From Nemertoderma westbladi (taxonomy: Eukaryota; Animalia; Xenacoelomorpha), in assembly GCA_032718475.1 (NCBI GenBank), contig JAUCBJ010005616.1:1-54762 (forward strand): a stretch of 54,762 nt of DNA, in the 5' to 3' direction. The translations under genes were made by a program, and so were the position numbers. The first letter of the stretch is position 1, and each line of letters starts with the position of its first letter. Below the pieces are notes generated by a model. That model worked only from the letters and a program-made list of their open reading frames with translations, was not told where the DNA came from and ran no database searches. Positions 23,962 to 54,448 of this stretch are shown here, in pieces.

Positions 23962-23998
23962 ATGGGTGATTACGGGCACCCAGGTGCACCCCCTACAA
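23962..23998 (+). CDS. SSUH2: SSUH2 first coding exon (MGDYGHPGAPPT)
   Basis: ACCATGG start context, donor A|GTACGT, phase 1 matches the next exon. Confidence 0.6.
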
Positions 23999-26900: not shown

Positions 26901-29900
26901 CGTGCCGTTACCCCCCCCATATTGGATATTATTTGCAGGATATAGAGCTAGTGATATAGATATTTTTACATCGATATAACAACAACGGTTAAGGACAGTA
27001 CCATAATTACAGGTGATGATAATTTTACTACGCAGGTCTAGTATGTAGCCCTGGCTGGGTTGGGTTATGCTATGCCATTGCTGCTGTAATATTCTGCAAA
27101 GAGTGGTTGCTATCAATATGAACTGTTCGCTTTTCAGATTATAATTATATAATATTTTTAGATATTTTGCTTAATTTAAATTTAAAATTAATATTTTGCT
27201 TTTAGATAATATTTTTTTTCCCGCGTAGAGACCGTGTAACACCTGTGGGGGTTCGGGAACTCAAACCGTAACGGGTTCGAGTAAACCACTACCTGACGGA
27301 ACGGTGCCGGAGCCGGTGGTAAAACCGTGTGGAACCTGTAAGTCCACCGGTCGAACCAAGTGTAAATTCTGTAACGGAGAAGGTGTTACAAAGTGCCGAC
27401 TCTGTCAGGGACATCGGATGCTAAAACACTATATCGAGATGAAAGTCGTGTTGTAAGTAATACATTGATGTCGCGTTAGAAATAAAAAAATAATGTAAAG
27501 TTTTCTCCGGCCGATAGGCCAGGGGTTACGCACAAAGTCCTCAAACGTATTTCCAGTGCGGTCTCCCCAGAACTATACTCCCTAGAGGAAATTCCAGTAC
27601 TCATTTAGCTACCACTTAAGAATGCAAGGCAAAGGTGCGCCATGGCTAGTCCCTTTAAACCATTCGCGCCGAAACGAAAACTGCCCTGGCCCTTGGCTGG
27701 TATCGAATCCACGACCTGCGGAGAGATGTGAATACAATGCAACTACTACTACACCAGGGTGGCACTTAAGTTTAAATAATACATCATTATAATTTTTGTC
27801 GTGTTGTATGTATTACATAACAACATTATATTAATTTACTTTACTACATTACCTATGGGAAGTGCACATAGAAGAGACAGTCATATCAGTGCAGATACGT
27901 TCAGTGATGGATGTAGTTCTGTATTTGAAGTTTATAATTGAACGTAGCTGTGGAGGGGGTATGTGGCCAGTGCTCTGTGATATCCACTTGAAATTCCCTT
28001 ACTTACGTAAGTGGGAGTTACCCATGTTCATGTTGAGTTGTGAGGCAATGCGGAAAGGTAACTGTAGCTCGAGACTGGGGCAATCAAGTGCTCTAACTAA
28101 GGTTCTATAGCAACTCCGATAGGCAATGATCGATAATTGTGGGGTACCAGAGAGTAGATATAGTGTATTATTCTCCAAATAGTTCCCAAGAAGTAAGAGG
28201 CCGCGTTGCACCTAGCGGTGGTAGGCGTCGAGTTTGTCGATATCCTTTCGGCGTAGGGATACAATAGTCAGAGTTAATCTGTAGATTATGACAGGGACGG
28301 CGAGTGTATTCCACATCTTAAAGATGGTCTCTAGGTTGAGCCACCTTGCTGTCCATCCTTTGGTATGGAACACTTGCGACAACATGTTTATTGTCTGGAT
28401 AACATCATGGAGGTTGCTAGCGGGGTTAGAATTTCCCAGTTTGTGTCCGAGGAATTTCAGATGGTCCGACATTTCGATTAGTGATCCGTTGACTGTAATG
28501 AAACATTCCTTGTGGGTCATATAGTTACGGTTTAGGATCGTCCATTTTGTTTTCTTCATGTCGATTTGGAGGGATATCTGAGCGGCTTCCTGTATGAGTA
28601 TTTCGCACATCTTCTCGACGGATTTAAGCGAGGTTCCCAGGAGTAGGTAATCGTCAGCATAGGCCACTGTACCAAGCCAGGATGTGTCAATTCGGCATCC
28701 GAGGTTACTATGTTATATTCCGCTTCTGATGTTGGAGGTGTAAAGATTGCAGAGGATGGGTGAAATGAGTGATCCCTGTTTCAATCCCCGCGAGACTTTT
28801 ATTGGGGTTGGGTCGACTAGATCGCCAAATTTGAGGAAGACTTTGCTCGATCCAAAGTAAGCTGAGATAAGGCAAATTATGTTAGGATTAACATTGTTGT
28901 TCAGCATCTTTTCTACTAAGATATTGTGGTCAACGTTATCGAAAGCCGCCTCAATGTCAAGTTGGCAAACGTATACTGGCGATCTTTTCGATGTGTTTTG
29001 TTCCACCGTTTCCAGTATTGTAGCGACTACTATGTCAGTGCTGTGTTTTCTCTTGTAGGCAGTTTTGTTCCCATGTGAGGTCAAGTTGTTTAGATAGTCA
29101 GCTAGAAGGATATGTTTGAGCACCTTGGCAAGTAGGCTGATGGATTAGACGGGCCTGTATGATGTAGGTTCTTGGGTAGAGCGACCCTTTCCTTTGTAGA
29201 TACTTGATATCACTGTATGACCAAATGCAGAGGGGACCGATGATGAGTCGGGCAAGTGTGTCAGAAATTGGATCAGGATTAAGGGATAGGAGGTGTTCAA
29301 CAGTCATAGATACATAGTCAGGGGCCTTGCCTCTGGAAAGTGAAGATATCGCCCGTTTAACTGCGAGGGGGGTTAGGGAGGTTAACTGAAACTAAATATT
29401 AGGTAACTTACTGCGTTTGTATTAAAAAAAAAAATTAAGGCCTAGAGATAACAATATGGTTAATAATTGTTAAAGTCTTTATTTCATTGTCATTTTGCAG
29501 CAAAAACCGAATTGATACTCACGTACAGGAGGGAACTGATATACCCGACGATATGGTAACCATGGCATCAGCTGACGTACTTTTCGATCAGACCCTGGAA
29601 ATGGTTTATCCAATCAGCGAATCTCCTTGGTCCGACATTAACTCGAACTCACAGAGACTGATCCAGCACCATACTACTGCCTTCCCAAACGAGCGAATAC
29701 TGAAACAGGTTCGTTTCTAATTGTAATTGTAATTAAGAAATGATTTAATTCGTCACATTTTAACATAATTTTCTCACAGACACAACCTCCGATGTATCCC
29801 TGTATTCACCTTCTTGTGGGGCGAGCCACGAAGTTGGCGGAGCCTTAGCGAATTGACACTGTTAGGGGGTGGGTCAATTTATGCAAATAGTTGTCGTCGT

Positions 29901-32900
29901 CGTCGTCGTCGTTGTCGTCGTCGTCGTTGTCGTCGTCGTCGTCGTCGTCGTCGTTACGATTTTGACATGCTAATAACTTTGTCGGATTTAAAGCTGCCAA
30001 GTTGAAAATTTGTAGGTATCAATATGAGCAAAAGTTGAGATTTTTGAGAGACTTTCAGACACCATCAGTGCAATGGTCTCCCGCTAGAGGGCCACATGTC
30101 TAAACATTAAATGCCCTCCCATTTCTTTGCTTTTAATCCGTTTAAGCTGAAACTTGGCAGATATGTATTAGACCATTAGCTGTGACTTTCAAAGGAGGCG
30201 AATCCATCTGCAGTTCTCCAGTCTGCCGCTAGAGGGCCAAAGGTCTGAAAGTGAAATCGTTGTCGTCGTTACGATTTTGACATGCTAATAACTTTGTCGG
30301 ATTTAAAGCTGCCAAGTTGAAAATTTGTAGGTATCAATATGAGCTAAAGTTGAGATTTTTGAGAGACTTTCAGACACCATCAGTGCAATGGTCTCCCGCT
30401 AGAGGGCCACATGTCTAAACATTAAATGCCCTCCCATTTCTTTGCTTTTAATCCGTTTAAGCTGAAACTTGGCAGATATGTATTAGACCATTAGCTGTGA
30501 CTTTCAAAGGAGGCGAATCCATCTGCAGTTCTCCAGTCTGCCGCTAGAGGGCCAAATGTCTGAAAGTGAAATCGTTGTCGTCGTTATGATATTGACATGC
30601 TTATAACTTTGTCGAATTTAAAGCTGCCAAGTTGAAAATTTGTTTTGTTGAAAATCAGTTCAACAGTCACCCGCTATAGGACTACTTTATGCCTGAAAGT
30701 GAATAGATTCTCCCGTCTCATTGATTTTAATCAGTTTAAGCTGAATCTTGCCATATATTCTGGACCACATGCTGCGTCTTTGTGGGGGGGGGGGGGGGGG
30801 GGGGGGAGATTTAATCGGTCTGCCGCTATACGACGAAATTTCTGAAAGTGAGATCCGTCTCTCATTTCGTTATCCGTTATTCAAGATGAAACTTGGCCGA
30901 TGTACGTATGTACTATTCATCCATAGGCTGTGTCTTTGTGGGGCTGGAGACCCTAATCCATCTTCAGTTCTCACTATACCGCTAGAGTCAGAAATGTCTG
31001 AATAGAAATGAAAGAGGTAAAAAGTGATTAGGCGAAATCTGCTTAAAATTTGCTAATACAGTAATACTTTCGAATTAGTACTTAAATTAAATTTAAGTCA
31101 CGTGCTGCGCGAAGGCCCCACTTCGTGTCTTACAGACACACAACCTCCGATGTATCCATGTATTCACCTTCTTGTCTTACATACACACAACCTCCGATGT
31201 ATCCCTGTATTCACATTTTTGTCTTACAGACACACAACCTCCGATGTATCCCTGTATTCACATTTTTGTCTTACAGACACACAACCTCCGATGTATCCCT
31301 GTATTCACCTTTTTGTCTTACAGACACACAACCTCCGATGTATCCCTGTATTCACCTTTTTGTCTTACAGACACACAACCTCCGATGTATCCCTGTATTC
31401 ACCTTTTTGTCTTACAGACACACAACCTCCGATGTATCCATGTATTCACATTTTTGTCTTACAGACACACAACCTCCGATGTATCCCTGTATTCACATTC
31501 TTGTCTTACAGACACACAACCTCCGATGTATCCCTGTATTCACCTTTTTGTCTTACAGACACACAACCTCCGATGTATCCATGTATTCACATTTTTGTCT
31601 TACAGACACACAACCTCCGATGTATCCCTGTATTCACATTCTTGTCTTACAGACACACAACCTCCGATGTATCCCTGTATTCACATTTTTGTCTTACAGA
31701 CACACAACCTCCGATGTATCCCTGTATTCACATTCTTGTCTTACAGACACACAACCTCCGATGTATCCCTGTATTCACCTTTTTGTCTTACAGACACACA
31801 ACCTCCGATGTATCCCTGTATTCACATTTTTGTCTTACAGACACACAACCTCCGATGTATCCCTGTATTCACATTCTTGTCTTACAGACACACAACCTCC
31901 GATGTATCCCTGTATTCACATTTTTGTCTTACAGACACACAACCTCCGATGTATCCCTGTATTCACATTCTTGTCTTACAGACACACAACCTCCAATGTA
32001 TCCCTGTATTCACATTCTTGTCTTACAGACACACAACCTCCGATGTATCCCTGTATTCACCTTTTTGTCTTACAGACACACAACCTCCGATGTATCCCTG
32101 TATTCACATTCTTGTCTTACAGACACACAACCTCCGATGTATCCCTATATTCACCTTTTTGTCTTACAGACACACAACCTCCAATGTATCCCTGTATTCA
32201 CATTCTTGTCTTACAGACACACAACCTCCGATGTATCCCTGTATTCACCTTTTTGTCTTACAGACACACAACCTCCGATGTATCCCTGTATTCACATTCT
32301 TGTCTTACAGACACACAACCTCCAATGTATCCCTGTATTCACCTTCTTGTCTTACAGACACACAACCTCCGATGTATCCCTGTATTCACCTTTTTGTCTT
32401 ACAGACACACAACCTCCGATGTATCCCTGTATTCACCTTTTTGTCTTACAGACACACAACCTCCGATGTATCCCTGTATTCACATTTTTGTCTTACAGAC
32501 ACACAACCTCCGATGTATCCCTGTATTCACATTCTTGTCTTACAGACACACAACCTCCGATGTATCCCTGTATTCACATTCTTGTCTTACAGACACACAA
32601 CCTCCGATGTATCCCTGTATTCACCTTTTTGTCTTACAGACACACAACCTCCGATGTATCCCTGTATTCACCTTCTTGTCTTACAGACACACAACCTCCG
32701 ATGTATCCCTGTATTCACATTTTTGTCTTACAGACACACAACCTCCGATGTATCCCTGTATTCACATTCTTGTCTTACAGACACACAACCTCCGATGTAT
32801 CCCTGTATTCAAATTCTTGTCTTACAGACACACAACCTCCAATGTATCCCTGTATTCACATTCTTGTCTTACAGACACACAACCTCCAATGTATCCCTGT

Positions 32901-35900
32901 ATTCACATTCTTGTCTTACAGACACACAACCTCCGATGTATCCCTGTATTCACATTCTTGTCTTACAGACACACAACCTCCGATGTATCCCTGTATTCAA
33001 ATTCTTGTCTTACAGACACACAACCTCCAATGTATCCCTGTATTCAAATTCTTGTCTTACAGACACACAACCTCCAATGTATCCCTGTATTCACATTCTT
33101 GTCTTACAAACACACAACCTCCGATGTATCCCTGTATTCAAATTCTTGTCTTACAGACACACAACCTCCAATGTATCCCTGTATTCACATTCTTGTCTTA
33201 CAGACACACAACCTCCAATGTATCCCTGTATTCACATTCTTGTCTTACAGACACACAACCTCCGATGTATCCCTGTATTCACATTTTTGTCTTACAGACA
33301 CACAACCTCCGATGTATCCCTGTATTCAAATTCTTGTCTTACAGACACACAACCTCCAATGTATCCCTGTATTCAAATTCTTGTCTTACAGACACACAAC
33401 CTCCAATGTATCCCTGTATTCACATTCTTGTCTTACAAACACACAACCTCCGATGTATCCCTGTATTCAAATTCTTGTCTTACAGACACACAACCTCCAA
33501 TGTATCCCTGTATTCACATTCTTGTCTTACAGACACACAACCTCCAATGTATCCCTGTATTCACATTCTTGTCTTACAGACACACAACCTCCGATGTATC
33601 CCTGTATTCACCTTCTTGTCTTACAGACACACAACCTCCGATGTATCCCTATATTCACCTTTTTGTCTTACAGACACACAACCTCCAATGTATCCCTGTA
33701 TTCACATTCTTGTCTTACAGACACACAACCTCCGATGTATCCATGTATTCACCTTTTTGTCTTACAGACACACAACCTCCGATGTATCCCTATATTCACC
33801 TTTTTGTCTTACAGACACACAACCTCCAATGTATCCCTGTATTCACATTCTTGTCTTACAGACACACAACCTCCGATGTATCCATGTATTCACCTTTTTG
33901 TCTTACAGACACACAACCTCCGATGTATCCCTATATTCACCTTTTTGTCTTACAGACACACAACCTCCAATGTATCCCTGTATTCACATTCTTGTCTTAC
34001 AGACACACAACCTCCGATGTATCCCTGTATTCACATTCTTGTCTTACAGACACACAACCTCCGATGTATCCATGTATTCACCTTTTTGTCTTACAGACAC
34101 ACAACCTCCGATGTATCCCTGTATTCACCTTTTTGTCTTACAGACACACAACCTCCGATGTATCCCTGTATTCACATTTTTGTCTTACAGACACACAACC
34201 TCCGATGTATCCCTGTATTCACCTTTTTGTCTTACAGACACACAACCTCCGATGTATCCCTGTATTCACCTTTTTGTCTTACAGACACACAACCTCCGAT
34301 GTATCCCTGTATTCACCTTTTTGTCTTACAGACACACAACCTCCGATGTATCCCTGTATTCACATTCTTGTCTTACAGACACACAACCTCCGATGTATCC
34401 CTGTATTCACATTCTTGTCTTACAGACACACAACCTCCGATGTATCCCTGTATTCACCTTCTTGTCTTACAGACACACAACCTCCGATGTATCCCTGTAT
34501 TCACCTTTTTGTCTTACAGACACACAACCTCCAATGTATCCCTGTATTCACATTCTTGTCTTACAGACACACAACCTCCGATGTATCCCTGTATTCACCT
34601 TTTTGTCTTACAGACACACAACCTCCGATGTATCCCTGTATTCACCTTTTTGTCTTACAGACACACAACCTCCGATGTATCCCTGTATTCACCTTTTTGT
34701 CTTACAGACACACAACCTCCAATGTATCCCTGTATTCACATTCTTGTCTTACAGACACACAACCTCCGATGTATCCCTGTATTCACCTTCTTGTCTTACA
34801 GACACACAACCTCCGATGTATCCCTATATTCACCTTTTTGTCTTACAGACACACAACCTCCAATGTATCCCTGTATTCACATTCTTGTCTTACAGACACA
34901 CAACCTCCGATGTATCCCTGTATTCACATTCTTGTCTTACAGACACACCACCTCCGATGTATCCCTGTATTCACATTCTTGTCTTACAGACACACAACCT
35001 CCGATGTATCCCTGTATTCACCTTCTTGTCTTACAGACACACAACCTCCGATGTATCCCTGTATTCACATTCTTGTCTTACAGACACACCACCTCCGATG
35101 TATCCCTGTATTCACATTCTTGTCTTACAGATACACAACCTCCGATGTATCCCTGTATTCACCTTCTTGTCTTACAGACACACAACCTCCGATGTATCCC
35201 TATATTCACCTTTTTGTCTTACAGACACACAACCTCCGATGTATCCCTGTATTCACATTCTTGTCTTACAGACACACAACCTCCAATGTATCCCTGTATT
35301 CACATTCTTGTCTTACAGACACACAACCTCCGATGTATCCCTGTATTCACATTTTTGTCTTACAGACACACAACCTCCGATGTATCCCTGTATTCAAATT
35401 CTTGTCTTACAGACACACAACCTCCGATGTATCCCTGTATTCAAATTCTTGTCTTACAGACACACAACCTCCAATGTATCCCTGTATTCAAATTCTTGTC
35501 TTACAGACACACAACCTCCAATGTATCCCTGTATTCACATTCTTGTCTTACAAACACACAACCTCCGATGTATCCCTGTATTCAAATTCTTGTCTTACAG
35601 ACACACAACCTCCAATGTATCCCTGTATTCACATTCTTGTCTTACAGACACACAACCTCCAATGTATCCCTGTATTCACATTCTTGTCTTACAGACACAC
35701 AACCTCCGATGTATCCCTGTATTCACCTTCTTGTCTTACAGACACACAACCTCCGATGTATCCCTATATTCACCTTTTTGTCTTACAGACACACAACCTC
35801 CAATGTATCCCTGTATTCACATTCTTGTCTTACAGACACACAACCTCCAATGTATCCCTGTATTCACATTCTTGTCTTACAGACACACAACCTCCGATGT

Positions 35901-41900: not shown

Positions 41901-44900
41901 ATAAACGACTAGCTGGGCGATTGAGTTGTTGTGTTACTTTCTCCGCTCCCTTGGCCTGTCTAATCTCAGCCGTGGTAAGATGAGGAGGCCATTCTTCTTC
42001 TTTACTTAAGAAGTCGGATCCACCTAACCAGCCTGGAGTATCTATCATTTCTTGAGGAGTTGCTCCTCTGGAAGCAATGTCAGCTGGATTAATCGTCCCA
42101 AGGCAATGTCTCCATAGATCTACGTTGGAGTTAATATCGTCATTATCTGAGGAGTATGGTGTTCCCTCAGTTGGATCGTCCACATCACTGCTCTCCACTT
42201 CCCTTTCCTTTACTTGGTATACCTGTTGTTGAGGTAATCTCTCTTTGAGAGTTCTACGGGAAGGGCCAGTGAAGTACCAACCTACTCTAGTTCTTACCGC
42301 ATAAGTTTGTAATGGCTGTGGTTGAGCAGGCCGTTTCTCTAATGTTTCGAGCGCCTCGTGCGCGTTTTGGCCGATGAGTATTTGCACTCCAGGATAATCT
42401 GTCTGGAATCGAGGTATCTTAAGATGTTGGATGCTCTCATCTTCGTCCCAATTATAAAGGTCTGCTTGAGTAGTAGCAAAGTTCTTTATAGCCACCATTT
42501 TTACTGACCTTATACCTTGTGTTCCTAACTTATCCTGGGGGGTGGACAACACACCTACATAGTAATCTGCCGTTAGGGTAGATTTCCAAACCTGCATAAT
42601 TCCTGACATATTCAATTTAGTCCGGAACTTGGGTTGTCCAGCAAAGATATCTTCGGCTAGTTCTTGATCGATGAATGTTCCTGTGCTGCCGGAGTCAAGT
42701 AGGGCGTTCACTATGTAACTCTTGTTGAGACCATGAACTCGAACTTGCACTACAGGAAATTCTCTTATTCCTATGTTGGAAGTTGGAACTTTCCAAGATG
42801 GTTGTTTGTCAAAAGGAGTTGGAGTAAACTCGTCAGTGTCCTTTTCATCCGTAAGTGCTCGATACACTGTGGTATTTATTAGATAACAGGATTCGTTGGC
42901 ATCGGAGAATTCGTCTGTATAGAATCCTTCCCACTCAGAACCTTGGTCAGTGTCGTTCACATCACTGAATTGGACATGTAGTTCGGGCTCACTTACCTGA
43001 CTCGGGTTGTCTCGTTCGAACTCACTGTGTAACAAGATGTGATGTTTCGCGCCACACTTTGCACACTTTACGTCGGAGTAACAGGTTCGCCGTTGGTGTC
43101 CTGATCTGAGGCAATTATAGCATAACCGCTTATTCCACAGGACTGTACGTCTGTCTACAGGGGATTTCTTTAGAAATTCAGCACACGCACTCAAACGGTG
43201 GGGCCCGTCGCACAGCGCACATTTTGGTTTGATGTTACTCACCTTACCTTGGGTAACGTTATGCACTCTCGTTCTTTCTTCGGGCTTTCTTCCGTGAATT
43301 CTCTTAGGAGACGTAGGAGGAGTTGTTGTTACCTGTTCTCTCCTGTCACTGATTCGAGACTTGTATTTACTTACGTCTTTATAGGTCTTGTTATCATAGT
43401 AAGATTTTGCTGTGTCTTTCCCGCTGTCCTCTTCTTGAGAAGCTTGGCTTTCGCCGTCGTCAGTATAACACACTGGTATTATCCTTCTCCTAGAAACGGG
43501 TTTCTCACTTACCTTATTTTCCGATGTTTTCTCTCTGGACTGCCTTATGAGTTGTAATTTTACTTCACTATCTAAGAAGGACATGAGATCAGCCATGGTA
43601 GGACTTCGTCGTTGTTGTTCATTCATGTACAACACTTTCTTGTCCCAGCGTGTACATACTCCACCCTTTGGTAAAGTAGAGACTACGGCTCCAATAACCA
43701 TGGAACTCTGATATTCATGCGACTTACCTAACCAGTCCAGTTGTCTACAGATTTCCTGAATTTCATCAGAAAACTCTATAATCCCGCTACTAAGGAAGTG
43801 TCGAGGGGCTACTAATTTTGCATACAAATACTTAGCTATGTTATCCTTGTTACCATACCTGATGTTTAATGTATCCCAAACTTGTCTTAATCCTTCTGGA
43901 TGTCCAATAAACTTTAACGCCATTAACTTGGGAGGTCCTTCCAAGCACTTGATGAGGAACCTAAGTTTCTCTCCGTTAGATAGCACAGAGTTCTGTATGC
44001 TGTCTTTGTAATATTCGTTGAAAGGTAACCATTTCATCTCATCTCCATTGAATTTGACGATCTCTCCCACTTTGACCGCTTGGCGGGCTTCTGTTCTAGC
44101 CATCTGACGCGTAAAGCTTTCTTGGGCCATCGTGTTATTTAATATCGAATTATCGGTATATAAAGTTCTCGGATCATTATCAGGTCTATAGGGAATATCA
44201 TTAATAACAGGTCTATAATCACCCTTAATAGGGTTTGCTATAGGAGTTTCAACTTCACTAGCAGTATAGATGCGTGTAGGCTCCACACCTTGCGCATGTA
44301 ATACTTCAGACCTAACAGGTTGACACAATGTTACAGGGGGTATTGGTATGCCCTTTTGTATATTGACTAATTTGTCGCGTTCTAGCGCGATACTTTGCTG
44401 CACTTCTTGCAACTCTGCTCTACCTTCCCTCACTGTTCCCTTAAGTTGGTGGACAGTCTCCTGCATCTGTCCTAGCAGGAGATTCATCCCCCGCCGTCCC
44501 TCTTCCACCCACTCAACCGCCGAAGCGGGAGTCGCCAACATAGTAGCGGGCTGACGCGGGACGACGGGAGACAAATTTTTGATTTCTCTCTCTGCTATCT
44601 GGACAGGGATATTCTCTTGGACTGTTCTACCGGGTACAGGCAGTGTAGTACTATGCAAAGGGAATTTAGAGTTAAGCTCTGGAAGTACAGGGGTCCCTAA
44701 CACAGAAGTGACTTTGGGAACGACAGGCCTAATTATTTCAGGCTCATCAACTATAGTAGGGAGTCCTTTGACCTTAATAATTTGGGCTGTAGGTTCTATA
44801 CTACTCAAGTCTGTGCTAGCTAGCTGTCTTCTAACAGCTGGGGGCAAATCAGGCAATTTGCGACGGTAAGATGTTTTTCTATGCCTACTTAGATGAGATC

Positions 44901-47900
44901 TATTTCCTCCGCCTTCAGGATCGGTGGTCTCGCCTTCCTCCGAGGATGTGTATCCCTGGCGCTTGGGAGTAGATTTTCTCATCATCTGCATTTGATTAGC
45001 AGTAAACTGTTTATTTATACTGTCTTGCGTCTCTTGCAGATTTTCCAACTCCAGTTGGATAGTCTCCTCAGACGCTCTCCGTTCTGCTTCTGCCACTGTT
45101 GCCTTTCTTTCGGCTTCCGCCGCTTTTCTTTCGGCTTCTGCTTCTGCCGCTTTTGCCTTTCTTTCGGCTTCTGCTTCTTTTCTTTCTGCTTCTGCTTCCG
45201 CCGCCGCTGCTGCTGCTACCTTTCTTCTCTCTATCAGTTCTTTCTTTACTTGTTCTTCTCGGACTCTAATGAGGCGGAGTTTTTCATCACATTCAGCTTG
45301 GTTTGCAGCTAACATTTCGGCATCGATTGAGTCCAACACAAGCTTGGTTCCTTCACTATTAGGGGAAAGTCCAGACAGCCGTCTCCTCAACTCTTCGTCT
45401 CCTAGGAATCGCTGATAGTCGGACAAATAAATGTCGATAGCGTCTCTAGTTCGCGGCTTCTCTGCTGATGTTAATTCGCTTTCCACCTCACTTTCCACTT
45501 CGCTTTCCACCTCACTTTCCACTTGAGAAGAAGTGGCGTCGGTTGATTCTTCATAGGTTGGCCGCTCATCATAAACCGTATCCGCCATCTTCGCTCCGCG
45601 TTCGGGCGTCCGCTCAACAGTATCCGAACTACTGGAGCTATCGGGCCGCTGAGAACTAGGTTCTTGGCTAGGAGGTTGCTGCTGTTTTATAGCTTCTTCT
45701 TGATCCCGCTTGACTTGGGCCCGAATGCCTATGGCAGACCAACGGCGCTTCACTAACTTCGCAAATTGCGAAATCCTTTCTACCAACCTAGGTTCTGACA
45801 CAACCACTGCAGGGGTTGCCCTTCTTACAGTATGAGGGGTTTCAGACCTCGGTCTGGGATTCTCTACACTTTGATCTGAGAAACAGGCTGTTGTTTCTAG
45901 GAGACTATCTGACAGAGTTTGCCTTGTGTCAGCCATGTTTGATTGTACAGTCGAATGCCTACTGCTATATTACAGTTAAAGCAAGTCTAGTAATTCAGTA
46001 TCACTGTTAGCCTAATAATTAATTACCGATACTGCTACTCAGTGTAGCGTGATATATATATAATATATTAGAATACCGGTATGCTTATAATATATATATA
46101 AGTATTATTACAGACTAGATTTGTCACAGAGTACCGGTATATAATTTTAGCACAAATGTATATAAATATATAATAGGCCTATCGTGAATACCGGTATACA
46201 GCTGACACTTATAGTATATATAAGTATAATTATTACTAGAATTAATTACAGAATACCGGTATGATTTCAGCTCAAATTTATAGAAATAAATATAATAAGC
46301 CTATGGTAAATACCGGTATGTCAATTATTTTAGAATAATTGAATTTCTGAATATTTTAGGGTTACTTGGTTACTTTAACTTACTTTATTACCGTTATTTA
46401 AGCAGCAGTCCAACTGATATTGAGACCTAGTTGTTGTATGGCAGGCCTACTATTTATAAATCGTTTGAGTTGATTTATAATATTTATATACCCGTTTAAA
46501 AGGGTTTTGTCAATATTTGAAATAAATGTTATTATTTCTGGGGGAGTCACTACACAGAAGCTGTGCGCTCTCAGTGAAGTGCTACCTATGGGACACTAAA
46601 ACAGATAATTCTAATTTACCTAAGTTACTTAATACTACAAATTACTTACGATATGGGTGAGATTAATTCTCTAATTAAACACAACAAAATATTACGTACG
46701 AATTTTTTAGGGTAATTTTACAGGAAGTCTACAAACCAGCCTAACAAGGGTTAGAATTCTGGTTATTACAATGGACAGGGTACTACGGTATTTGAAAATA
46801 ATAAGTAGTAGTAAATACACTGCGTTGTCCAGATATGAAAATACCACCGCCTGACGACCTATAACCGTATCGCTATAGGTACTACGTTATGTATCACGGA
46901 TTGTTCCTACCCAGTAGTTAATAGAGCTAACGAATGTGCCTATCAACCACTTTACAACACAAATATACTGCCTACACACTAATTACTTCGGAAAGCACTG
47001 TACACTAAACCCTAAATTAGGTACAAGTACTGGTATAACAAATAATCAGCAGTTAAATATACTTGAACAGTTAAAAGAACTACGGCATCTGCTGGAGTGA
47101 CCGAAGCACAAAGTCACCAGTCTTTACCTACGCCAAGCAGCCCGTGTAGTACCGGGGTTAATTTAACTATAACGGTATGTGTAACAAACACAATTACTGT
47201 AGGAATAAACTTGGGGACATGAATGTTGCGAATAATCGCATAAACTCTGAATAATAAATATTACGCTACCCGTACAGAATACTCAAACAAAATACAGACC
47301 AAATGCTGGCAGACTACCACCATGCCTAAATAAACTACTGTATGTGCAGATTCCAAAACGGTTAGTTAGTATGCGTTCTAACACGGTAGTACGACTTATT
47401 CTTTAAGAGGGGATTGACCTTACAGTTATGACTGCCCCAACTTACTAACTAGCACTTTATCAGACAAACTCTACACAAGCAGCAATCTCTTCAGACCTAA
47501 TAATAGCTAGACAACAATCCAGCCTACAAAATATCTGAGTAATAACTATTACGGTACCTGAACAGACCACACAAACAAACACAGGCCAAAACGCTGGCAG
47601 ACTACGATCAAGCCTAAATAAACTACAGTATATGCAGATTCTGAAATAGTTAGTTAGTATGCGTTCTAACACGGTAGTACGACTTATTCTTTAAGAGGGG
47701 ATTGACCTTGCAGCATATGGCTGCCCCAACTTACTAACGGCACTCTATCAGACAAACTCTACACACGCCGTAATCTCTCCAAACTCAACAACAATCCGAC
47801 AACAGTCTGGCCTACAATTATCTGAACAATCTGAGCAGACTTACACGTCTTCAGCTCAATATTAACTTACTAGGAAATAAAACTGACAGAAATAAGTAAA

Positions 47901-50900
47901 CTATACAAAAGAATGAGGGGTGATCAATCCCTATTCCCCTGGCAGCCTACAATATACAATAGATCACAATCGAAATAATACTAATGTACTTATACTGGAA
48001 GTACCGGTTAGGACAGTTGGGCCTACGGACCTACAGAAGTACCGGTTCTGGCAGTTGGACCTACGGACCTACAGCAGTACCGGTTCTGGCAGTTGGGCCT
48101 ACTGACCTACAGAAGTACCGGTTCAGGTTTACCGGTCGACCGGTACTTTCAACTTTATTGCTTACTGCAATAAAGTCAATGACTGTTATTGTACGCGCTT
48201 TTGAAGACCTTTAGCAGTTTAACCTGCCAAAATTTATATGTCTTTTGATTTATAAATATACTTTAGAAGATGACAAATATTTAATACCAATAAACACAAC
48301 ATTAGCAGAAGCCAGCCTAGTGCGCGTCCATTCACCCGCTGGATAATCCCGGGAGACTGGATTCTGTCGGCTTAGATTATTATTGCAGTGAAGCTTACGG
48401 TATTGTATTATTCGATTGATCGTTAATAATTAATTTCTGACTAATATTATTCACTTTCGGGAAATATTAACAGTTCCTTTTAGGACGTGGCGCTCTATCT
48501 AAGTAAACAGAGATATGACTTATACCAATCACAACGGTAAGTCGGTAAGGCTTATGATTCACGTATGAGGCGCATTCTTTAGGAAATGCTTAGTTATCAG
48601 CCACAATCATGCACACTACCGGTAACGCACAATACTGCTCACTAATTTGCCGACCGTCAATGAATTTTATCATATATAAAGAGAATAGCAACGGACTCAT
48701 GTAGGGCTTATCAAATAGCATTAAATTCAATACACACCACAATAATATAAGTCGCAATCGCTATATATATAACCCGCCTCTCTAACCTGTAGTGTATCAA
48801 GAAAATTGGGAAATTTGGGTTCTTTATAAATGTTCTCCAAATAATATTCAATCCACTGATATAAGATATGACAACAGTAAAAACATTAAGACGGTAGGTT
48901 AAGATATGATATGAACCGATATGTACAGTGATATGCACTGATATGGACCGATATGTGAGTTGTTATGAACCGTGAATTGATATGTGAATTGATAACAGTC
49001 ATACGCTCTATAATCTTAAGCCTACTAATGTTTCTTTCTAGAGCCGTTGTTTCTGGCTTAGACAGCAATAACAACAAAGTATCAGTAAAAAACTGTAAGA
49101 CTGAACAATCCCAGTATGATCGGCTCAAAGCTCCACATCGACAGAGAGAATCGCTCTGATTGGCTGAAGCCAAACAAAGAACCATGCGTCCAATGGCTGT
49201 TTCCATTTAAGCAACCGGCTGTTAGATGTCGTAATCTGAATCATCACGGCTAAGCTGTGTAAAAGTATTTGCCGTATTGCGGGTTTTTTGCCTTACCATG
49301 TCCGCTAAAACACGTATATAGCAGAATGACTTTTATGTCCGTTAAAACACCTGTAACGGTACCTTGCGGGCGAGGGGAATATATATACAGTTAGAGAACC
49401 TTTTTTAGAGTATTCCAGCGCCTGGGGGGAAACTGGATTGCGAAGCAAAGGGGCCAGTTATATCCCACAGAAGCTTTTACACCATGTATTCACATTTTTT
49501 TCTTACAGACACACAACCTCCGATGTATCCCTGTATTCACATTCTTGTCTTACAGACACACAACCTCCGATGTATCCCTGTATTCACCTTTTTGTCTTAC
49601 AGACACACAACCTCCGATGTATCCATGTATTCACATTTTTTTCTTACAGACACACAACCTCCGATGTATCCCTGTATTCACATTCTTGTCTTACAGACAC
49701 ACAACCTCCGATGTATCCCTGTATTCACCTTTTTGTCTTACAGACACACAACCTCCGATGTATCCCTGTATTCACATTTTTGTCTTACAGACACACAAAC
49801 TCCGATGTATCCATGTATTCACCTTTTTTGTCTTACAGACACACAACCTCCGATGTATCCCTGTATTCACATTTTTGTCTTACAGACACACAACCTCCGA
49901 TGTATCCCTGTATTCACATTCTTGTCTTACAGACACACAACCTCCGATGTATCCATGTATTCACATTTTTGTCTTACAGACACACAACCTCCGATGTATC
50001 CCTGTATTCACATTTTTGTCTTACAGACACACAACCTCCGATGTATCCATGTATTCACATTCTTGTCTTACAGACACACAACCTCCGATGTATCCCTGTA
50101 TTCACCTTTTTGTCTTACAGACACACAACCTCCGATGTATCCCTGTATTCACATTTTTGTCTTACAGACACACAACCTCCGATGTATCCCTGTATTCACA
50201 TTCTTGTCTTACAGACACACAACCTCCGATGTATCCATGTATTCACATTCTTGTCTTACAGACACACAACCTCCGATGTATCCCTGTATTCACCTTTTTG
50301 TCTTACAGACACACAACCTCCGATGTATCCCTGTATTCACATTTTTGTCTTACAGACACACAACCTCCGATGTATCCATGTATTCACATTTTTGTCTTAC
50401 AGACACACAACCTCCGATGTATCCCTGTATTCACATTTTTGTCTTACAGACACACAACCTCCGATGTATCCCTGTATTCACCTTTTTGTCTTACAGACAC
50501 ACAACCTCCGATGTATCCCTGTATTCACCTTTTTGTCTTACAGACACACAACCTCCGATGTATCCTTGTATTCACATTTTTGTCTTACAGACACACAACC
50601 TCCGATGTATCCCTGTATTCACCTTTTTGTCTTACAGACACACAACCTCCGATGTATCCCTGTATTCACCTTTTTGTCTTACAGACACACAACCTCCGAT
50701 GTATCCTTGTATTCACATTTTTGTCTTACAGACACACAACCTCCGATGTATCCCTGTATTCACCTTTTTGTCTTACAGACACACAACCTCCGAAGTATCC
50801 CTGTATTCACATTCTTGTCTTACAGACACACAACCTCCGATGTATCCCTGTATTCACGTTTTTGTCTTACAGACACACAACCTCCGATGTATCCCTGTAT

Positions 50901-53477
50901 TCACATTTTTGTCTTACAGACACACAACCTCCGATGTATCCATGTATTCACATTTTTGTCTTACAGACACACAACCTCCGATGTATCCCTGTATTCACCT
51001 TTTTGTCTTACAGACACACAACCTCCGATGTATCCCTGTATTCACATTCTTGTCTTACAGACACACAACCTCCGATGTATCCCCCTATATTCACCTTTTT
51101 GACTTACAGACACACAACCTCCGATGTATCCCCCTGTATTCACCTTCTTGTCTTACAGACACACAACCTCCGATGTATCCATGTATTCACCTTTTTGTCT
51201 TACAGACACACAACCTCCGATGTATCCATGTATTCACATTCTTGTCTTACAGACACACAACCTCCAATGTATCCCTGTATTCACCTTTTTGTCTTACAGA
51301 CACACAACCTCCGATGTATCCATGTATTCACATTTTTTTCTTACAGACACACAACCTCCGATGTATCCCTGTATTCACATTCTTGTCTTACAGACACACA
51401 ACCTCCGATGTATCCCTGTATTCACCTTTTTGTCTTACAGACACACAACCTCCGATGTATCTATGTATTCACATTTTTTTCTTACAGACACACAACCTCC
51501 GATGTATCCCTGTATTCACATTCTTGTCTTACAGACACACAACCTCCGATGTATCCCTGTATTCACCTTTTTGTCTTACAGACACACAACCTCCGATGTA
51601 TCCCTGTATTCACATTTTTGTCTTACAGACACACAAACTCCGATGTATCCATGTATTCACCTTTTTGTCTTACAGACACACAACCTCCGATGTATCCCTG
51701 TATTCACATTTTTGTCTTACAGACACACAACCTCCGATGTATCCCTGTATTCACATTCTTGTCTTACAGACACACAACCTCCGATGTATCCATGTATTCA
51801 CATTTTTGTCTTACAGACACACAACCTCCGATGTATCCCTGTATTCACATTTTTGTCTTACAGACACACAACCTCCGATGTATCCATGTATTCACATTCT
51901 TGTCTTACAGACACACAACCTCCGATGTATCCCTGTATTCACCTTTTTGTCTTACAGACACACAACCTCCGATGTATCCCTGTATTCACATTTTTGTCTT
52001 ACAGACACACAACCTCCGATGTATCCCTGTATTCACATTCTTGTCTTACAGACACACAACCTCCGATGTATCCATGTATTCACATTCTTGTCTTACAGAC
52101 ACACAACCTCCGATGTATCCCTGTATTCACCTTTTTGTCTTACAGACACACAACCTCCGATGTATCCCTGTATTCACATTTTTGTCTTACAGACACACAA
52201 CCTCCGATGTATCCATGTATTCACATTTTTGTCTTACAGACACACAACCTCCGATGTATCCCTGTATTCACATTTTTGTCTTACAGACACACAACCTCCG
52301 ATGTATCCATGTATTCACATTTTTGTCTTACAGACACACAACCTCCGATGTATCCCTGTATTCACCTTTTTGTCTTACAGACACACAACCTCCGATGTAT
52401 CCCTGTATTCACCTTTTTGTCTTACAGACACACAACCTCCGATGTATCCCCCTATATTCACCTTTTTGTCTTACAGACACACAACCTCCGATGTATCCCC
52501 CTGTATTCACATTTTTGTCTTACAGACACACAACCTCCGATGTATCCCTGTATTCACATTCTTGTCTTACAGACACACAACCTCCGATGTATCCATGTAT
52601 TCACCTTTTTGTCTTACAGACACACAACCTCCGATGTATCCCTGTATTCACATTCTTGTCTTACAGACACACCACCTCCGATGTATCCATGTATTCACCT
52701 TTTTGTCTTACAAACACACAACCTCCGATGTATCCCTGTATTCACATTCTTGTCTTACAGACACACCACCTCCGATGTATCCATGTATTCACATTTTTGT
52801 CTTACAGACACACAACCTCCGATGTATCCATGTATTCACCTTTTTGTCTTACAAACACACAACCTCCGATGTATCCCTGTATTCACCTTCTTGTCTTACA
52901 GACACACAACCTCCGATGTATCCCTGTATTCACCTTCTTGTCTTACAGACACACAACCTCCGATGTATCCCTGTATTCACATTCTTGTCTTACAGACACA
53001 CAACCTCCGATGTATCCCTGTATTCACCTTTTTGTCTTACAGACACACAACCTCCGATGTATCCCTGTATTCACCTTTTTGTCTTACAGACACACAACCT
53101 CCGATGTATCCTCATATTCACCTTCTTGTCTTACAGACACACAACCTCCGATGTATCCATGTATTCACCTTTTTGTCTTACAGACACACAACCTCCGATG
53201 TATCCATGTATTCACCTTCTTGTCTTACAGACACACAACCTCCGATGTATCCCTATATTCACCTTTTTGTCTTACAGACACACAACCTCCGATGTATCCA
53301 TGTATTCACCTTTTTGTCTTACAGACACACAACCTCCGATGTATCCCTGTTGCCGAGGTACATGTTGGATATAAGAACCGCCGTTTCCGGTTCTGGATTT
53401 ACGGATTAGACCGAACTGTCTACGAGACCGATTATCCACACTCTTGTCTGTGCTGCCGCACTTGCAATATTCTATAA
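23962..53477 (+). CDS. SSUH2: SSUH2 homologue, 8 coding exons: 23962-23998, 24212-24358, 24731-24803, 25255-25384, 26154-26402, 27229-27452, 29501-29708, 53325-53477 (1221 nt, 406 aa)
   Basis: All introns are GT-AG and phases join without stops. Protein motifs: CCYGSGPA, YVLKSFTESR...EPY.G..IDGP.NG..P.PWDI, HTATVKPC, repeated CxxCxGxG, RILKQ|THNLRCIPVAEV...FWIYG..R.VY..DYP and a C-terminal CCRTCNIL (CaaX-like). These are characteristic of SSUH2/C3orf32. Confidence 0.88.
24212..24358 (+). CDS. SSUH2: SSUH2 coding exon 2
   Basis: ttttcag acceptor, G|gtgagt donor, encodes ...IEKIPGYENT.... Confidence 0.8.
24731..24803 (+). CDS. SSUH2: SSUH2 coding exon 3
   Basis: tttag acceptor, gtaagt donor, phases 1 and 2 consistent. 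Confidence 0.75.
25255..25384 (+). CDS. SSUH2: SSUH2 coding exon 4
   Basis: Encodes ASVITEEDAVNIFQKYTFRRCCYGSGPA...NAFR, with ttttag and gtgagt sites. Confidence 0.85.
25643..25716 (+). pseudogene. tRNA-derived sequence (SINE head or tRNA pseudogene, anticodon loop CT-TGT-AA, Thr-like)
   Basis: A-box-like TGGTTCAGTTGG and B-box-like GTTCAATCCC. The stems pair poorly. Confidence 0.55.
26154..26402 (+). CDS. SSUH2: SSUH2 coding exon 5
   Basis: Encodes YVLKSFTESR...CFKCIGQGFLKCSKCSGKGT, with ttttcag and gtgagt sites. Confidence 0.9.
26475..26908. repeat. (GTGCC)n pentanucleotide microsatellite, about 85 units, intronic
   Basis: Directly visible and nearly perfect. Confidence 0.97.
27229..27452 (+). 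CDS. SSUH2: SSUH2 coding exon 6 (four CxxC motifs)
   Basis: Encodes RPCNTCGGSG...CGTCKSTG..CKFCNGEG..CRLCQG, with gtag and gtaagt sites. Confidence 0.9.
27495..27765 (-). mobile_element. Probable tRNA-derived SINE
   Basis: Minus-strand head with A-box-like TGGTGTAGTAGT and B-box GGATTCGATACC, followed by a ~200-bp body. Boundaries approximate. Confidence 0.5.
27800..29385 (-). mobile_element. 5'-truncated, frameshifted LINE (RT domain, clade uncertain) in SSUH2 intron 6
   Basis: LDIEAAFDNVDH and GLKQGSLISPILCNLY (28713-29123), AYADDYLL and KFLG (28212-28667). Confidence 0.85.
29501..29708 (+). CDS. SSUH2: SSUH2 coding exon 7
   Basis: ttttgcag acceptor, encodes ...VYPI...RILKQ, donor CAG|gttcgt in phase 0. 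Confidence 0.88.
29815..31125 (+). mobile_element. Helentron/HINE(DINE-1)-like non-autonomous element inserted in the first 47-bp unit
   Basis: Splits TTCT^TGTC with no TSD. Short subterminal inverted motif GTGGGGC/GCCCCAC, 3' hairpin CGAAG-GCCCCA-CTTCG, (CGT)n tract at 29892-29954 and an internal ~318-bp tandem duplication. Confidence 0.65.
31126..37505 (+). repeat. 47-bp tandem array A (about 136 copies), amplified SSUH2 intron 7/exon 8 junction
   Basis: Unit attcac(a/c)tt(t/c)ttgtcttacag|ACACACAACCTCCGATGTATCCCTGT matches 53304-53350. Confidence 0.97.
37506..38797 (-). repeat. 3' LTR
   Basis: Near-identical to 48190-49481. One difference seen: GGCGTATTC versus GGCGCATTC. Confidence 0.95.
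38876..39208 (-). CDS. Possible small basic accessory ORF (110 aa, K/R-rich C-terminus)
   Basis: Overlaps the end of the zinc-knuckle ORF and ends KKLRKRRPRKKD. No family recognised. Confidence 0.3.
   Translation of the reverse strand: MERTIKPRRFLAAYSPPTALVQTTRKGPVRAAVLKRALKAVRPLSPDVDVNQPGTSTGGYTDHNSTPSDAIILHPSPRSYSPPCKVARPKEKRTLASFKKLRKRRPRKKD
39175..40164 (-). CDS. Accessory triple zinc-knuckle ORF (329 codons) with one in-frame TGA at 39768-39766
   Basis: ORFs 39766-40164 and 39175-39609 are in the same frame with 52 sense codons between them. Motifs CWLCASRDH-x9-C, CAYCRFNNLHVFAVC and CHHCQLKGHASFDC. Confidence 0.65.
41794..45936 (-). CDS. BEL/Pao Gag-protease polyprotein (1380 aa) with RT, most of RNase H and the integrase core deleted in frame
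   Basis: Capsid-like FNGD...W..F...EKLRFLIKCLEG. Knuckles CALCDGPHRLSAC, CYNCLRSGHQRRTC and CAKCGAKHHILLH. Protease ALLDSGS. Then only WRHC...NPADIASRG...W..G.DFL...WP and RPASRLCLLE remnants. Confidence 0.92.
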   Translation of the reverse strand: MADTRQTLSDSLLETTACFSDQSVENPRPRSETPHTVRRATPAVVVSEPRLVERISQFAKLVKRRWSAIGIRAQVKRDQEEAIKQQQPPSQEPSSQRPDSSSSSDTVERTPERGAKMADTVYDERPTYEESTDATSSQVESEVESEVESEVESELTSAEKPRTRDAIDIYLSDYQRFLGDEELRRRLSGLSPNSEGTKLVLDSIDAEMLAANQAECDEKLRLIRVREEQVKKELIERRKVAAAAAAEAEAERKEAEAERKAKAAEAEAERKAAEAERKATVAEAERRASEETIQLELENLQETQDSINKQFTANQMQMMRKSTPKRQGYTSSEEGETTDPEGGGNRSHLSRHRKTSYRRKLPDLPPAVRRQLASTDLSSIEPTAQIIKVKGLPTIVDEPEIIRPVVPKVTSVLGTPVLPELNSKFPLHSTTLPVPGRTVQENIPVQIAEREIKNLSPVVPRQPATMLATPASAVEWVEEGRRGMNLLLGQMQETVHQLKGTVREGRAELQEVQQSIALERDKLVNIQKGIPIPPVTLCQPVRSEVLHAQGVEPTRIYTASEVETPIANPIKGDYRPVINDIPYRPDNDPRTLYTDNSILNNTMAQESFTRQMARTEARQAVKVGEIVKFNGDEMKWLPFNEYYKDSIQNSVLSNGEKLRFLIKCLEGPPKLMALKFIGHPEGLRQVWDTLNIRYGNKDNIAKYLYAKLVAPRHFLSSGIIEFSDEIQEICRQLDWLGKSHEYQSSMVIGAVVSTLPKGGVCTRWDKKVLYMNEQQRRSPTMADLMSFLDSEVKLQLIRQSREKTSENKVSEKPVSRRRIIPVCYTDDGESQASQEEDSGKDTAKSYYDNKTYKDVSKYKSRISDRREQVTTTPPTSPKRIHGRKPEERTRVHNVTQGKVSNIKPKCALCDGPHRLSACAEFLKKSPVDRRTVLWNKRLCYNCLRSGHQRRTCYSDVKCAKCGAKHHILLHSEFERDNPSQVSEPELHVQFSDVNDTDQGSEWEGFYTDEFSDANESCYLINTTVYRALTDEKDTDEFTPTPFDKQPSWKVPTSNIGIREFPVVQVRVHGLNKSYIVNALLDSGSTGTFIDQELAEDIFAGQPKFRTKLNMSGIMQVWKSTLTADYYVGVLSTPQDKLGTQGIRSVKMVAIKNFATTQADLYNWDEDESIQHLKIPRFQTDYPGVQILIGQNAHEALETLEKRPAQPQPLQTYAVRTRVGWYFTGPSRRTLKERLPQQQVYQVKEREVESSDVDDPTEGTPYSSDNDDINSNVDLWRHCLGTINPADIASRGATPQEMIDTPGWLGGSDFLSKEEEWPPHLTTAEIRQAKGAEKVTQQLNRPASRLCLLERDRKLSGNYGRQDTLPTTTSLIRQISRDSIT
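48190..49481 (-). repeat. 5' LTR
   Basis: Direct repeat of 37506-38797, upstream of gag on the minus strand. Confidence 0.95.
49482..53350 (+). repeat. 47-bp tandem array B (about 82 copies), last unit is the real SSUH2 terminal-exon acceptor
   Basis: Same unit as array A. The final copy continues ...ATCCCTGT-TGCCGAG into unique coding sequence. Confidence 0.97.
53325..53477 (+). CDS. SSUH2: SSUH2 terminal coding exon (THNLRCIPVAEV...CCRTCNIL*)
   Basis: ttgtcttacag acceptor, phase 0 matches exon 7, typical SSUH2 C-terminus. AATAAA at about 53782. Confidence 0.88.
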   Translation, partial: THNLRCIPVAEVHVGYKNRRFRFWIYGLDRTVYETDYPHSCLCCRTCNIL

Positions 53478-53576
53478 ACTATACACTGGATTGCCTAACT
53501 TTAAATCATAGCTGGTTGTTTGCATATAAACTATACACTGGATTGCCTAACTTTAAATCACAGCTGGTTGTTTGCA
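53473..53576 (+). repeat. 52-bp tandem duplication spanning the SSUH2 stop codon and start of the 3'UTR
   Basis: TATAAACTATACACTGGATTGCCTAACTTTAAATCA(T/C)AGCTGGTTGTTTGCA occurs twice. Confidence 0.9.
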
Positions 53577-54448
53577 TACATTTATATCGTTATTATTTAT
53601 CAAATCATTACTACTTAAATTTTCTGTAATATGAAACAACAAGTTATAAAGCTATATGGCTAGAAAGCATTACTCATTATTATTAAATGATTTGTAAATA
53701 CTAATTCAATTTATAAAGTGTCATAATTTTTGGTAATAATTGTTAAGTTGTATCTTTTTATTCATTAAAAACACAGTTAAAAATAAACTCATGAGGGAGT
53801 CTACTGTAAGATATTAATGTTTGTGTGGTAGCTGCTTCGTCTGCATCTCTTCAGCCTGTCGCGCGCTGGAGACCGAAATGTCCAAAGTGAAAACCGTTTC
53901 GTTTCGTTGATGTTAACACATTAACCTTGGATTAACATGTACCTTGCAAGAATATGAGAATTAAAGACCTGATGGGAACAAAATTACCGTTGAAAAGCCA
54001 ATTCATCCAATGAAACTTTGAACCTGATTTAAGGGACAACAATATAATATTGAAAAAAATGTATACGTTTTTTTCCCATGGTAATGAATACTTTATTGTT
54101 GCTTAATTCTTAAATAAAAGATAAGAGTCATAGTGTTACAAAATTAATTGAACTGTTTAGTATTTTACTATATTGTTTCCATAGTTACTGCGATTCAAAT
54201 TTATGTACTATTCAACTCCTAACGCTGCCTTACTCAATGTTAAATAATTTAGTGTTCTCGAATATTTATTAAGTAACTAGAGAGCCACTTAACAACTTAA
54301 ACCATGATTGGATATTGAGTTCCTCCGTTTTGGTGTTCGCCGCGCAGACACTAAAGTTGCAGTAACTTTTGAGTGAGTGAATGGATTTTGCTCAAATTAC
54401 TTTCAAACCTTTTCTATTTCGATGCTCTTTCAACACATATCATTAATT

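What the first reader, a model, noticed from the sequence alone, without database searches (positions are those of the whole stretch)
29709..53477. SSUH2's terminal exon lies behind about 220 tandem copies of its own 3' splice site
Seen: the 47-bp satellite unit is 21 nt of intron end (branch-like TTCAC, pyrimidine tract, TTACAG) plus the first 26 nt of exon 8. Only the last copy (AG at 53323-53324) runs into the unique C-terminus. All eight exons join into an undisrupted 406-aa frame, so the gene does not look decayed. Established: spliceosomes usually favour proximal acceptors, while terminal exons are defined by pairing the 3' splice site with the poly(A) site. Inference: making normal protein needs hundreds of near-identical decoy acceptors to be skipped. 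This could be an extreme case of terminal-exon definition, a copy-number-tunable expression or isoform switch, or a satellite that has disabled this allele. It also shows a satellite born from a splice junction, helping expand a probably short intron to 23.6 kb.
Basis: partly seen in the sequence, partly recalled or inferred. Interest (0 to 1): 0.92.

Follow-up and report, generated by a model that had tools for sequence, protein, structure and literature searches.

The report
Retrotransposon-split splice-acceptor "mirage" in SSUH2
The border between the last intron and last exon of an animal's SSUH2 gene is copied head-to-tail 219 times and was recently split by a retrotransposon; the cell likely still splices to the final, true copy, which would make this a large example of a repeat type already known from lancelets rather than a new switch.

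Summary
Observation confirmed, with corrections. Eight exons join to a 406-aa SSUH2 homologue without stops; the 23,616-nt last intron holds 219 copies (1+136+82) of a 47-bp unit made of intron end plus exon-8 start, 212 with an AG. Homologues align without a gap at the junction, so the unit is the real border. (1) Half the intron is a very young 12-kb LTR element that split one array and brought 17 sense-strand AATAAA. (2) An isolated, diverged first copy marks the old 71-nt intron. (3) The unit has no stop codon, so 27 upstream acceptors also reach the native C-terminus in frame. This is a 'mirage' minisatellite (lancelet globin, Adh3; PMC3087553), and the scan already noted 13 such arrays elsewhere in this genome, several larger. 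Most likely (0.65) only the last acceptor is used, because only it is followed by a full exon and poly(A) signal; the main rival (0.17) is recent damage by the LTR element. No RNA could be examined here, so acceptor use is inferred. Interest 0.3.

The parts
23962..27452 (+). SSUH2 exons 1-6 (23962-23998, 24212-24358, 24731-24803, 25255-25384, 26154-26402, 27229-27452)
   Evidence: GT/AG ends and open joined frame; exon 5 finds 609 proteins at E<=0.001, named SSUH2 homologues
29501..29708 (+). SSUH2 exon 7, phase-0 end; donor GT at 29709-29710
29709..29779 (+). Remnant of the original short intron 7 (71 nt); its last 22 nt are a diverged relative of the unit's intron part
   Evidence: 15-16 of 22 identical to the unit, against 6-13 for the gene's six other acceptors; shuffle p 0.003-0.014
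29780..29815 (+). Isolated first copy: exon-like part 2 nt short, so out of frame; stop at 29846 if used
29816..31121 (.). 1.3-kb insertion with short inverted ends, a GTC microsatellite and an internal 315-bp repeat; cuts the first copy off from the array
   Evidence: its left end recurs inverted near 5590-5614, so it is likely a dispersed element
31122..37505 (+). Array A: 136 copies of the 47-bp acceptor unit (exon-like starts 31136 to 37481)
37506..49481 (-). Young LTR element: LTRs 37506-38797 and 48190-49481 (1,292 bp, 1 mismatch, TG...CA), 5-bp target-site duplication 37501-37505 / 49482-49486, 1,391-aa gag-like ORF 41794-45969 with DUF1759 and no Pfam reverse-transcriptase match; carries 17 AATAAA on the SSUH2 strand
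49487..53324 (+). Array B: 82 copies counting the functional one (exon-like starts 49509 to 53325); holds a 39-copy higher-order duplication
53325..53477 (+). Exon 8 coding part, 50 aa, ending in a CaaX-like CNIL; acceptor AG 53323-53324
   Evidence: 76 of 86 homologues covering the junction end in Cxxx
53782..53787 (+). Candidate poly(A) signal AATAAA with a G/T-rich stretch downstream
   Evidence: G+T fraction 0.68; use not shown

Best explanation
A 47-bp piece spanning the intron-7/exon-8 border of SSUH2 is tandemly amplified to 219 copies and interrupted by two insertions, and the gene likely still makes normal mRNA by joining exon 7 to the last copy, because only that AG is followed by a full exon and a candidate poly(A) signal. 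Shown: anatomy, copy number, open frame, junction register, insertions. Inferred order of events: a short intron (about 70 nt) had its acceptor border duplicated; unequal exchange amplified and homogenised the copies while the outermost intron end was left out; a 1.3-kb element cut off the first copy; a 39-copy block was duplicated; an LTR element then landed in one of the two blocks very recently. Inferred choice of site: the acceptor sequence cannot single out the true copy (64 copies match it over the 22 intron bases, 36 over -22 to +25), so what follows the AG must decide. Decoys carry only 25 nt of exon, then G-poor repeat, and no usable donor; the last copy runs into purine-richer exon sequence and the poly(A) region. 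The array is likely a tolerated passenger that may lower splicing efficiency.
For: Gapless junction in 76 of 86 homologues. Frame intact over 406 codons; in a substitution-only simulation a neutral copy stays stop-free 5.7% of the time at 5% divergence and 1 in 1,500 at 14%, and the unit differs from the old intron end at 6-7 of 22 sites, so the gene likely stayed under selection during much of the array's life. Exon 8 keeps the CaaX-like end found in 76 of 86 homologues. All 7 real donors have G,T at +5,+6; none of the 3 GT sites of the commonest unit does. Unit G 0.11, purines 0.34, against 0.22 and 0.45 for unique exon 8 and 0.47-0.59 purines for exons 1-7. Array copies are not held to the protein code: 9 of 10 variant types in codons 1-8 change the residue. 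Variant order continues across the LTR element (21 of 23 copies identical to a block 39 copies on; 3 of them left of the element; best score in 100 shuffles 8 against 19). Literature: lancelet mirages do not seem to disturb splicing (PMC3087553 and PMC3902484, passages); duplicated acceptors with short exon pieces used only the distal site in vitro (PMC5389562, passage); last-acceptor and poly(A) recognition are coupled (PMC3890989, introduction passage).
Against: No transcript of this gene was seen, so acceptor use is untested. The in vitro analogue spliced very inefficiently. Poly(A) pairing cannot by itself separate the last copy from those 47, 94 and 141 nt upstream. The LTR pair differs at 1 of 1,292 sites, far too young for damage to show in the frame (98% stay open at that divergence). 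Exon 8 matches 14 of 24 conserved columns (0.58) against a homologue mean of 0.73, sd 0.13, the lowest relative standing of the well-aligned exons 5-8. The age argument rests on 22 bases, and mean pairwise divergence among 211 units is only 4.2%, at half of which 32% of neutral copies stay open.
Confidence: 0.65

Rival explanations
1. The array was tolerated, but the recent LTR insertion has crippled this allele: it placed poly(A) signals behind array A, making a decoy terminal exon, and may drive antisense transcription.
For: All 17 sense-strand AATAAA of intron 7 lie inside the LTR element. The last acceptor of array A (37481) reads in frame for 27 residues to a stop at 37562, with AATAAA at 37605, the same layout that would define the true exon. 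The element is too young to have left lesions.
Against: The sequence downstream of 37605 is poor in G+T (0.41 against 0.68 for the native signal), the 'exon' there is LTR sequence, and intronic poly(A) signals are commonly suppressed by U1 (listing of PMC5499120; abstract start only).
Confidence: 0.17
2. The array is a working isoform or dosage switch: a sizeable share of transcripts use upstream acceptors, every third of which inserts 47-residue blocks while keeping the native C-terminus, and copy number tunes the share.
For: The unit has no stop in any + frame; 28 of 82 acceptors in array B reach the native stop. An intronic VNTR's length correlates with expression and exon skipping in human ABCA7 (PMC11095487 passages).
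Against: Stop-freedom is unremarkable: 11% of shuffled units, 50% if the exon part is kept, are stop-free; 0 of 18 single-base variants in 47-bp units make a stop against 18 of 141 possible (p about 0.09), one 49-bp unit does carry a TGA, and four 49-bp and one 48-bp spacing shift the frame. Variants are mostly residue-changing.
Confidence: 0.1
3. The copy number, or the array itself, is an assembly artefact.
For: No reads, second haplotype or genome could be examined; long repeats are often mis-assembled.
Against: 34 distinct unit variants among 216 units in ordered, nested blocks, no N in the window, an LTR element with a clean 5-bp target-site duplication inside the array, and variant order that continues across it.
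Confidence: 0.04
4. The intron is removed in steps through the copies (recursive or micro-exon splicing).
For: Each copy offers an AG and three GT dinucleotides; one GT would close a 24-nt in-frame micro-exon.
Against: The AG is followed by AC, not GT, so no donor is rebuilt; the GT sites lack the +5 G, +6 T of all 7 real donors; the gap from that GT to the next AG is only 23 nt.
Confidence: 0.04

Closest known systems
Lancelet 'mirage' minisatellites (Adh3, globins BflGb6 and BflGb9, troponin C, PGBD5); PMC3087553 and PMC3902484, passages read; the original Adh3 paper was not held
   Same: Head-to-tail copies of the host gene's own intron-exon border; BflGb6 has the same acceptor geometry (intron 3' end plus exon start); many copies keep splice signals; inner copies homogenised, boundary copy left out.
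   Different: 219 copies against 3 and 6 for BflGb6; precedes the terminal exon; split by a 12-kb LTR element and a 1.3-kb insertion; no relative closer than about 42% identity was found, so the host is not identified; normal splicing and length polymorphism are not shown here.
Human F7 intron-7 37-bp VNTR (PMC1557585, abstract read)
   Same: Minisatellite whose first unit spans an exon-intron border; identical pseudo-sites stay silent although potentially functional.
   Different: Donor side, where a 5'-to-3' scan picks the first site; here the acceptor next to the exon is the last one transcribed.
Engineered duplicated beta-globin 3' splice sites with 14, 55 or 205 nt of exon (PMC5389562, passage; constructs credited there to Reed and Maniatis 1986, not read)
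   Same: Acceptor plus a short exon piece placed upstream of the true acceptor; the distal site was the only one used.
   Different: Two sites in vitro against 219 in a genome; splicing was very inefficient there.
Bel/Pao-type LTR retrotransposons (family assignment from DUF1759 is recalled; Pfam and Atlas hits are)
   Same: TG...CA LTRs, 5-bp target-site duplication, gag-like ORF with DUF1759; Atlas look-alikes carry DUF1759 and aspartic protease families.
   Different: No reverse-transcriptase match in the long ORF, so likely internally deleted and non-autonomous.

Membership tests
Mirage minisatellite | Tandem unit spans an exon-intron border of the host gene | tested here: met
   22 nt intron end + 25 nt exon 8; junction fixed by 76 of 86 gapless homologues
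Mirage minisatellite | Minisatellite-sized unit (10-160 bp reported) | tested here: met
   47 bp; range from PMC3087553
Mirage minisatellite | Many copies keep the splice signal | tested here: met
   212 of 219 keep an AG
Mirage minisatellite | Concerted evolution inside, boundary copy excluded | tested here: met
   Mean pairwise difference 4.2% among 211 units; boundary intron end 15-16 of 22 identical; nested blocks
Mirage minisatellite | Length differs between haplotypes or cells | not testable with these tools
   No genome held, no runs listed
Mirage minisatellite | Regular mRNA splicing is not disturbed | not testable with these tools
   No RNA holder listed; protein and DNA look-ups blank
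Recursive (ratchet) splice sites | AG directly followed by a GT donor | tested here: not met
   AG is followed by AC in the unit
SSUH2 family | Full-length similarity to named SSUH2 homologues with conserved C-terminus | tested here: met
   Top BLASTP hits 35-42% identity over 300-410 residues, E to 1e-88; names; Cxxx end
Bel/Pao LTR retrotransposon | Paired LTRs with short target-site duplication and DUF1759 gag | tested here: met
Bel/Pao LTR retrotransposon | pol with reverse transcriptase and integrase (autonomous element) | tested here: not met
   Pfam finds only DUF1759 in the 1,391-aa ORF and nothing in two shorter ORFs scanned; 3 of the element's ORFs were scanned, not all

The most novel reading that the evidence does not exclude
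The young LTR element has turned array A into a second, decoy terminal exon (in-frame acceptor, 27 codons, stop, AATAAA 41 nt later), so this allele is a natural, datable experiment in which poly(A)-site pairing picks one acceptor out of hundreds of identical ones and yields a truncated SSUH2 without its CaaX end; and homogenisation of the array reaches into the real exon, driving changes into the protein (Thr where 55 of 66 homologues have Arg at the first exon-8 residue).
Probability: 0.15. Interest if true: 0.6.

Novelty: new member of a known kind. Interest (0 to 1): 0.3.

Why it matters
Alone it adds one more large mirage to a genome that seems full of them. Its use is as a test locus: the true acceptor has 35 identical twins over 47 bases, lies before a terminal exon, and an insertion of known relative age has put rival poly(A) signals in the middle of the array. 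3'-end and junction reads from alleles with and without the LTR element would separate exon-content from poly(A)-pairing models of 3' splice-site choice. The isolated first copy and the two insertions also give an order of events for how such arrays grow from a 70-nt intron.

Tried and rejected
Expression could not be tested: no RNA holder was listed for exons 1-5 (no evidence either way), so no reads were laid. Protein searches with exon 7 (122-2000 aa), exon 5 (147-2000 aa) and three units plus exon 8 (53-170 aa) found nothing; a 22-nt exon-8 pattern had 0 matches in metagenome contigs; the scan's own notes held no look-alike of exon 8. These blanks are not evidence. No whole genome is held, so no genome-wide count was made here. 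Rejected: the array as a selected coding repeat (stop-freedom expected by chance, variants mostly residue-changing); recursive splicing (no AG|GT); the isolated first copy as the working acceptor (out of frame, stop after 22 codons); exon 8 starting downstream of the repeat (would leave an 8-residue gap not seen). Other arrays in the window were not shown to be junction-derived (flank translations). Literature: searches found the mirage papers; one search found no acoel genome paper holding all five terms; one search gave no SSUH2-CaaX paper among the 10 listed, so the prenylation reading rests on general knowledge. Supplements were not opened; Additional file 4 of PMC3087553 holds the BflGb6 alignment and could refine the comparison.

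Full report
Observation. The window holds two 47-bp arrays, 31122-37506 and 49485-53350. A search for the exon-8 core with up to 2 mismatches finds 219 copies on the + strand and none on the - strand: one at 29780, 136 in array A, 82 in array B. 211 have AG at the standard position, the isolated copy has one 2 nt off register, and 7 have lost it. Eight exons with GT/AG ends join to 406 residues without a stop; intron 7 is 29709-53324, 23,616 nt. Of the gene's 16 exon edges only the start of exon 8 is repeated.

Gene identity and junction. Exon 5 finds 609 proteins at E<=0.001, of which the best 150 were returned. Of 10 looked up, 7 clusters carry an SSUH2 name and 3 have none. 86 of the 150 cover the exon 7/8 junction; 76 of these show no gap from -6 to +11. 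Among the 66 rows without a query gap, 55 have Arg where this gene has Thr at the first exon-8 residue. 76 of the 86 end in Cxxx, as this protein does with CNIL; reading that as a prenylation motif is general knowledge, not tested.

First, an isolated copy 71 nt after the donor. Its 22 intron bases match the unit at 15-16 positions, against 6-13 for the gene's six other acceptors (shuffle p 0.003-0.014). It is the old intron end, left out of homogenisation. Its exon-like part is 2 nt short and would stop after 22 codons. A 1.3-kb insertion (29816-31121) with short inverted ends separates it from array A; the same left end recurs inverted near 5600. Second, the gap between the arrays is an 11,976-bp LTR element in antisense: LTRs of 1,292 bp with 1 mismatch, a 5-bp target-site duplication, and a 1,391-aa ORF with DUF1759 (E 7.5e-12) and no Pfam reverse-transcriptase match; Atlas look-alikes share DUF1759 (top score 0.90). 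The order of unit variants runs on across it: copies 135-157 match copies 174-196 at 21 of 23 (3 of them left of the element), score 19 against a maximum of 8 in 100 shuffles. So A and B were one array, a 39-copy block was duplicated, and the element then landed in one block. It makes 51% of the intron, the arrays 43%. Third, the unit has no stop in any + frame, so 28 of 82 acceptors in array B, the last included, reach the native stop; the 27 upstream ones would add repeat-encoded blocks of about 47 residues each. That is not a sign of selection: 11% of shuffled units and 50% of units with only the intron part shuffled are stop-free, 0 of 18 single-base variants in 47-bp units create a stop against 18 of 141 possible, one 49-bp unit has a TGA, and 9 of 10 variant types in codons 1-8 change the residue.

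Mechanism. The acceptor itself cannot mark the true copy: 64 copies equal it over the 22 intron bases and 36 over -22 to +25. What follows differs. Decoys have 25 nt of exon and then G-poor repeat (G 0.11, purines 0.34); the last copy runs into sequence with G 0.22 and purines 0.45, near the other exons' 0.47-0.59, and then to AATAAA at 53782 with a G/T-rich stretch. The three GT sites of the commonest unit lack the +5 G and +6 T seen in 7 of 7 real donors, so decoys are unlikely to be defined as internal exons, and there is no AG|GT ratchet. In vitro, duplicated beta-globin acceptors with 14, 55 or 205 nt of exon spliced only to the distal site, though very inefficiently (PMC5389562, passage). 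Coupling of the last acceptor with poly(A) recognition is established (PMC3890989, introduction passage). I infer that exon content picks among the last few copies and poly(A) pairing excludes distant ones (0.65). That the gene lived with the array is suggested by the open frame: simulated neutral substitution leaves it open in 32% of runs at 2%, 5.7% at 5% and 1 of 1,500 at 14% divergence, while the unit and old intron end differ at 6-7 of 22 sites. This clock is crude, and unit-to-unit divergence (4.2%) alone would not carry the argument.

Against. No RNA was seen: no holder was listed and three protein searches and one DNA scan were blank; these say nothing either way. Exon 8 matches 14 of 24 conserved columns (0.58; 80 homologues, mean 0.73, sd 0.13), while exons 5-7 sit at or above the mean (exon 5 was the search query, which favours it). 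All 17 sense-strand AATAAA of the intron lie in the LTR element; the last acceptor of array A gives 27 in-frame codons, a stop at 37562 and AATAAA at 37605, though with a weak downstream element (G+T 0.41 against 0.68). The element is too young to have left lesions, so recent damage stays open (0.17).

Comparison. Tandem duplications of intron-exon borders are described in lancelets as 'mirages', including the acceptor geometry (BflGb6), boundary copies excluded from homogenisation, and RT-PCR suggesting normal splicing (PMC3087553, passages; PMC3902484, passage). I found this paper by search before opening the scan's notes. Human F7 has a donor-side case with silent identical pseudo-sites (PMC1557585, abstract); ABCA7 shows that intronic VNTR length can go with altered splicing (PMC11095487, passages). 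The scan's unchecked notes list 13 distinct junction arrays elsewhere in this genome, some with 700-1,300 copies, and several report transcripts that use the copy next to the exon; these are leads, not tests. Four structural membership features of mirages are met; length polymorphism and undisturbed splicing could not be tested.

Verdict. Real, well-defined, and a new member of a known kind. The terminal position, the dated LTR insertion with its decoy poly(A) signals and the preserved boundary copy make it a useful test locus, not a new system. Interest 0.3.

Noticed in passing
window 5752-13442: 7.7-kb array of a 38-41-bp unit with an AT-rich flank on the left and a GC-richer flank on the right; read on the minus strand the unit holds a T-rich run ending in CAG. 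It could be another border-derived array, but the flank translations gave no recognisable protein.
   Followed up: partly
window 13829-14551 (+): Single 240-codon ORF with an IRF DNA-binding domain (Pfam E 2.4e-8) and no visible intron; possibly a retrocopy or short IRF gene.
   Followed up: partly
window 53473-53578: 52-bp tandem duplication that begins 2 nt before the SSUH2 stop codon, i.e. a second small duplication at an edge of the coding sequence.
   Followed up: no
window 28212-29144 (-): Two reverse-transcriptase fragments (Pfam RVT_1) of a broken LINE-like element inside SSUH2 intron 6.
   Followed up: partly
window 26475-26908: 86 copies of a 5-bp repeat (99% identical) in SSUH2 intron 5.
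   Followed up: no
window 38876-40182 (-): Extra ORFs in the 3' half of the LTR element, one with several Cys/His clusters; no Pfam match for the two scanned.
   Followed up: partly
window 19825-21675 and 22442-23022; 14917-15298 and 16855-17051: Two pairs of tandem arrays facing each other as inverted partners (53-bp and 7-bp units), suggestive of foldback-type elements.
   Followed up: no
window 29778-29788: The isolated first copy, read from its AG, spells an Arg codon followed by His-Asn-Leu, the residue most homologues have; it may be a trace of the ancestral exon start or just a 2-nt slip.
   Followed up: partly
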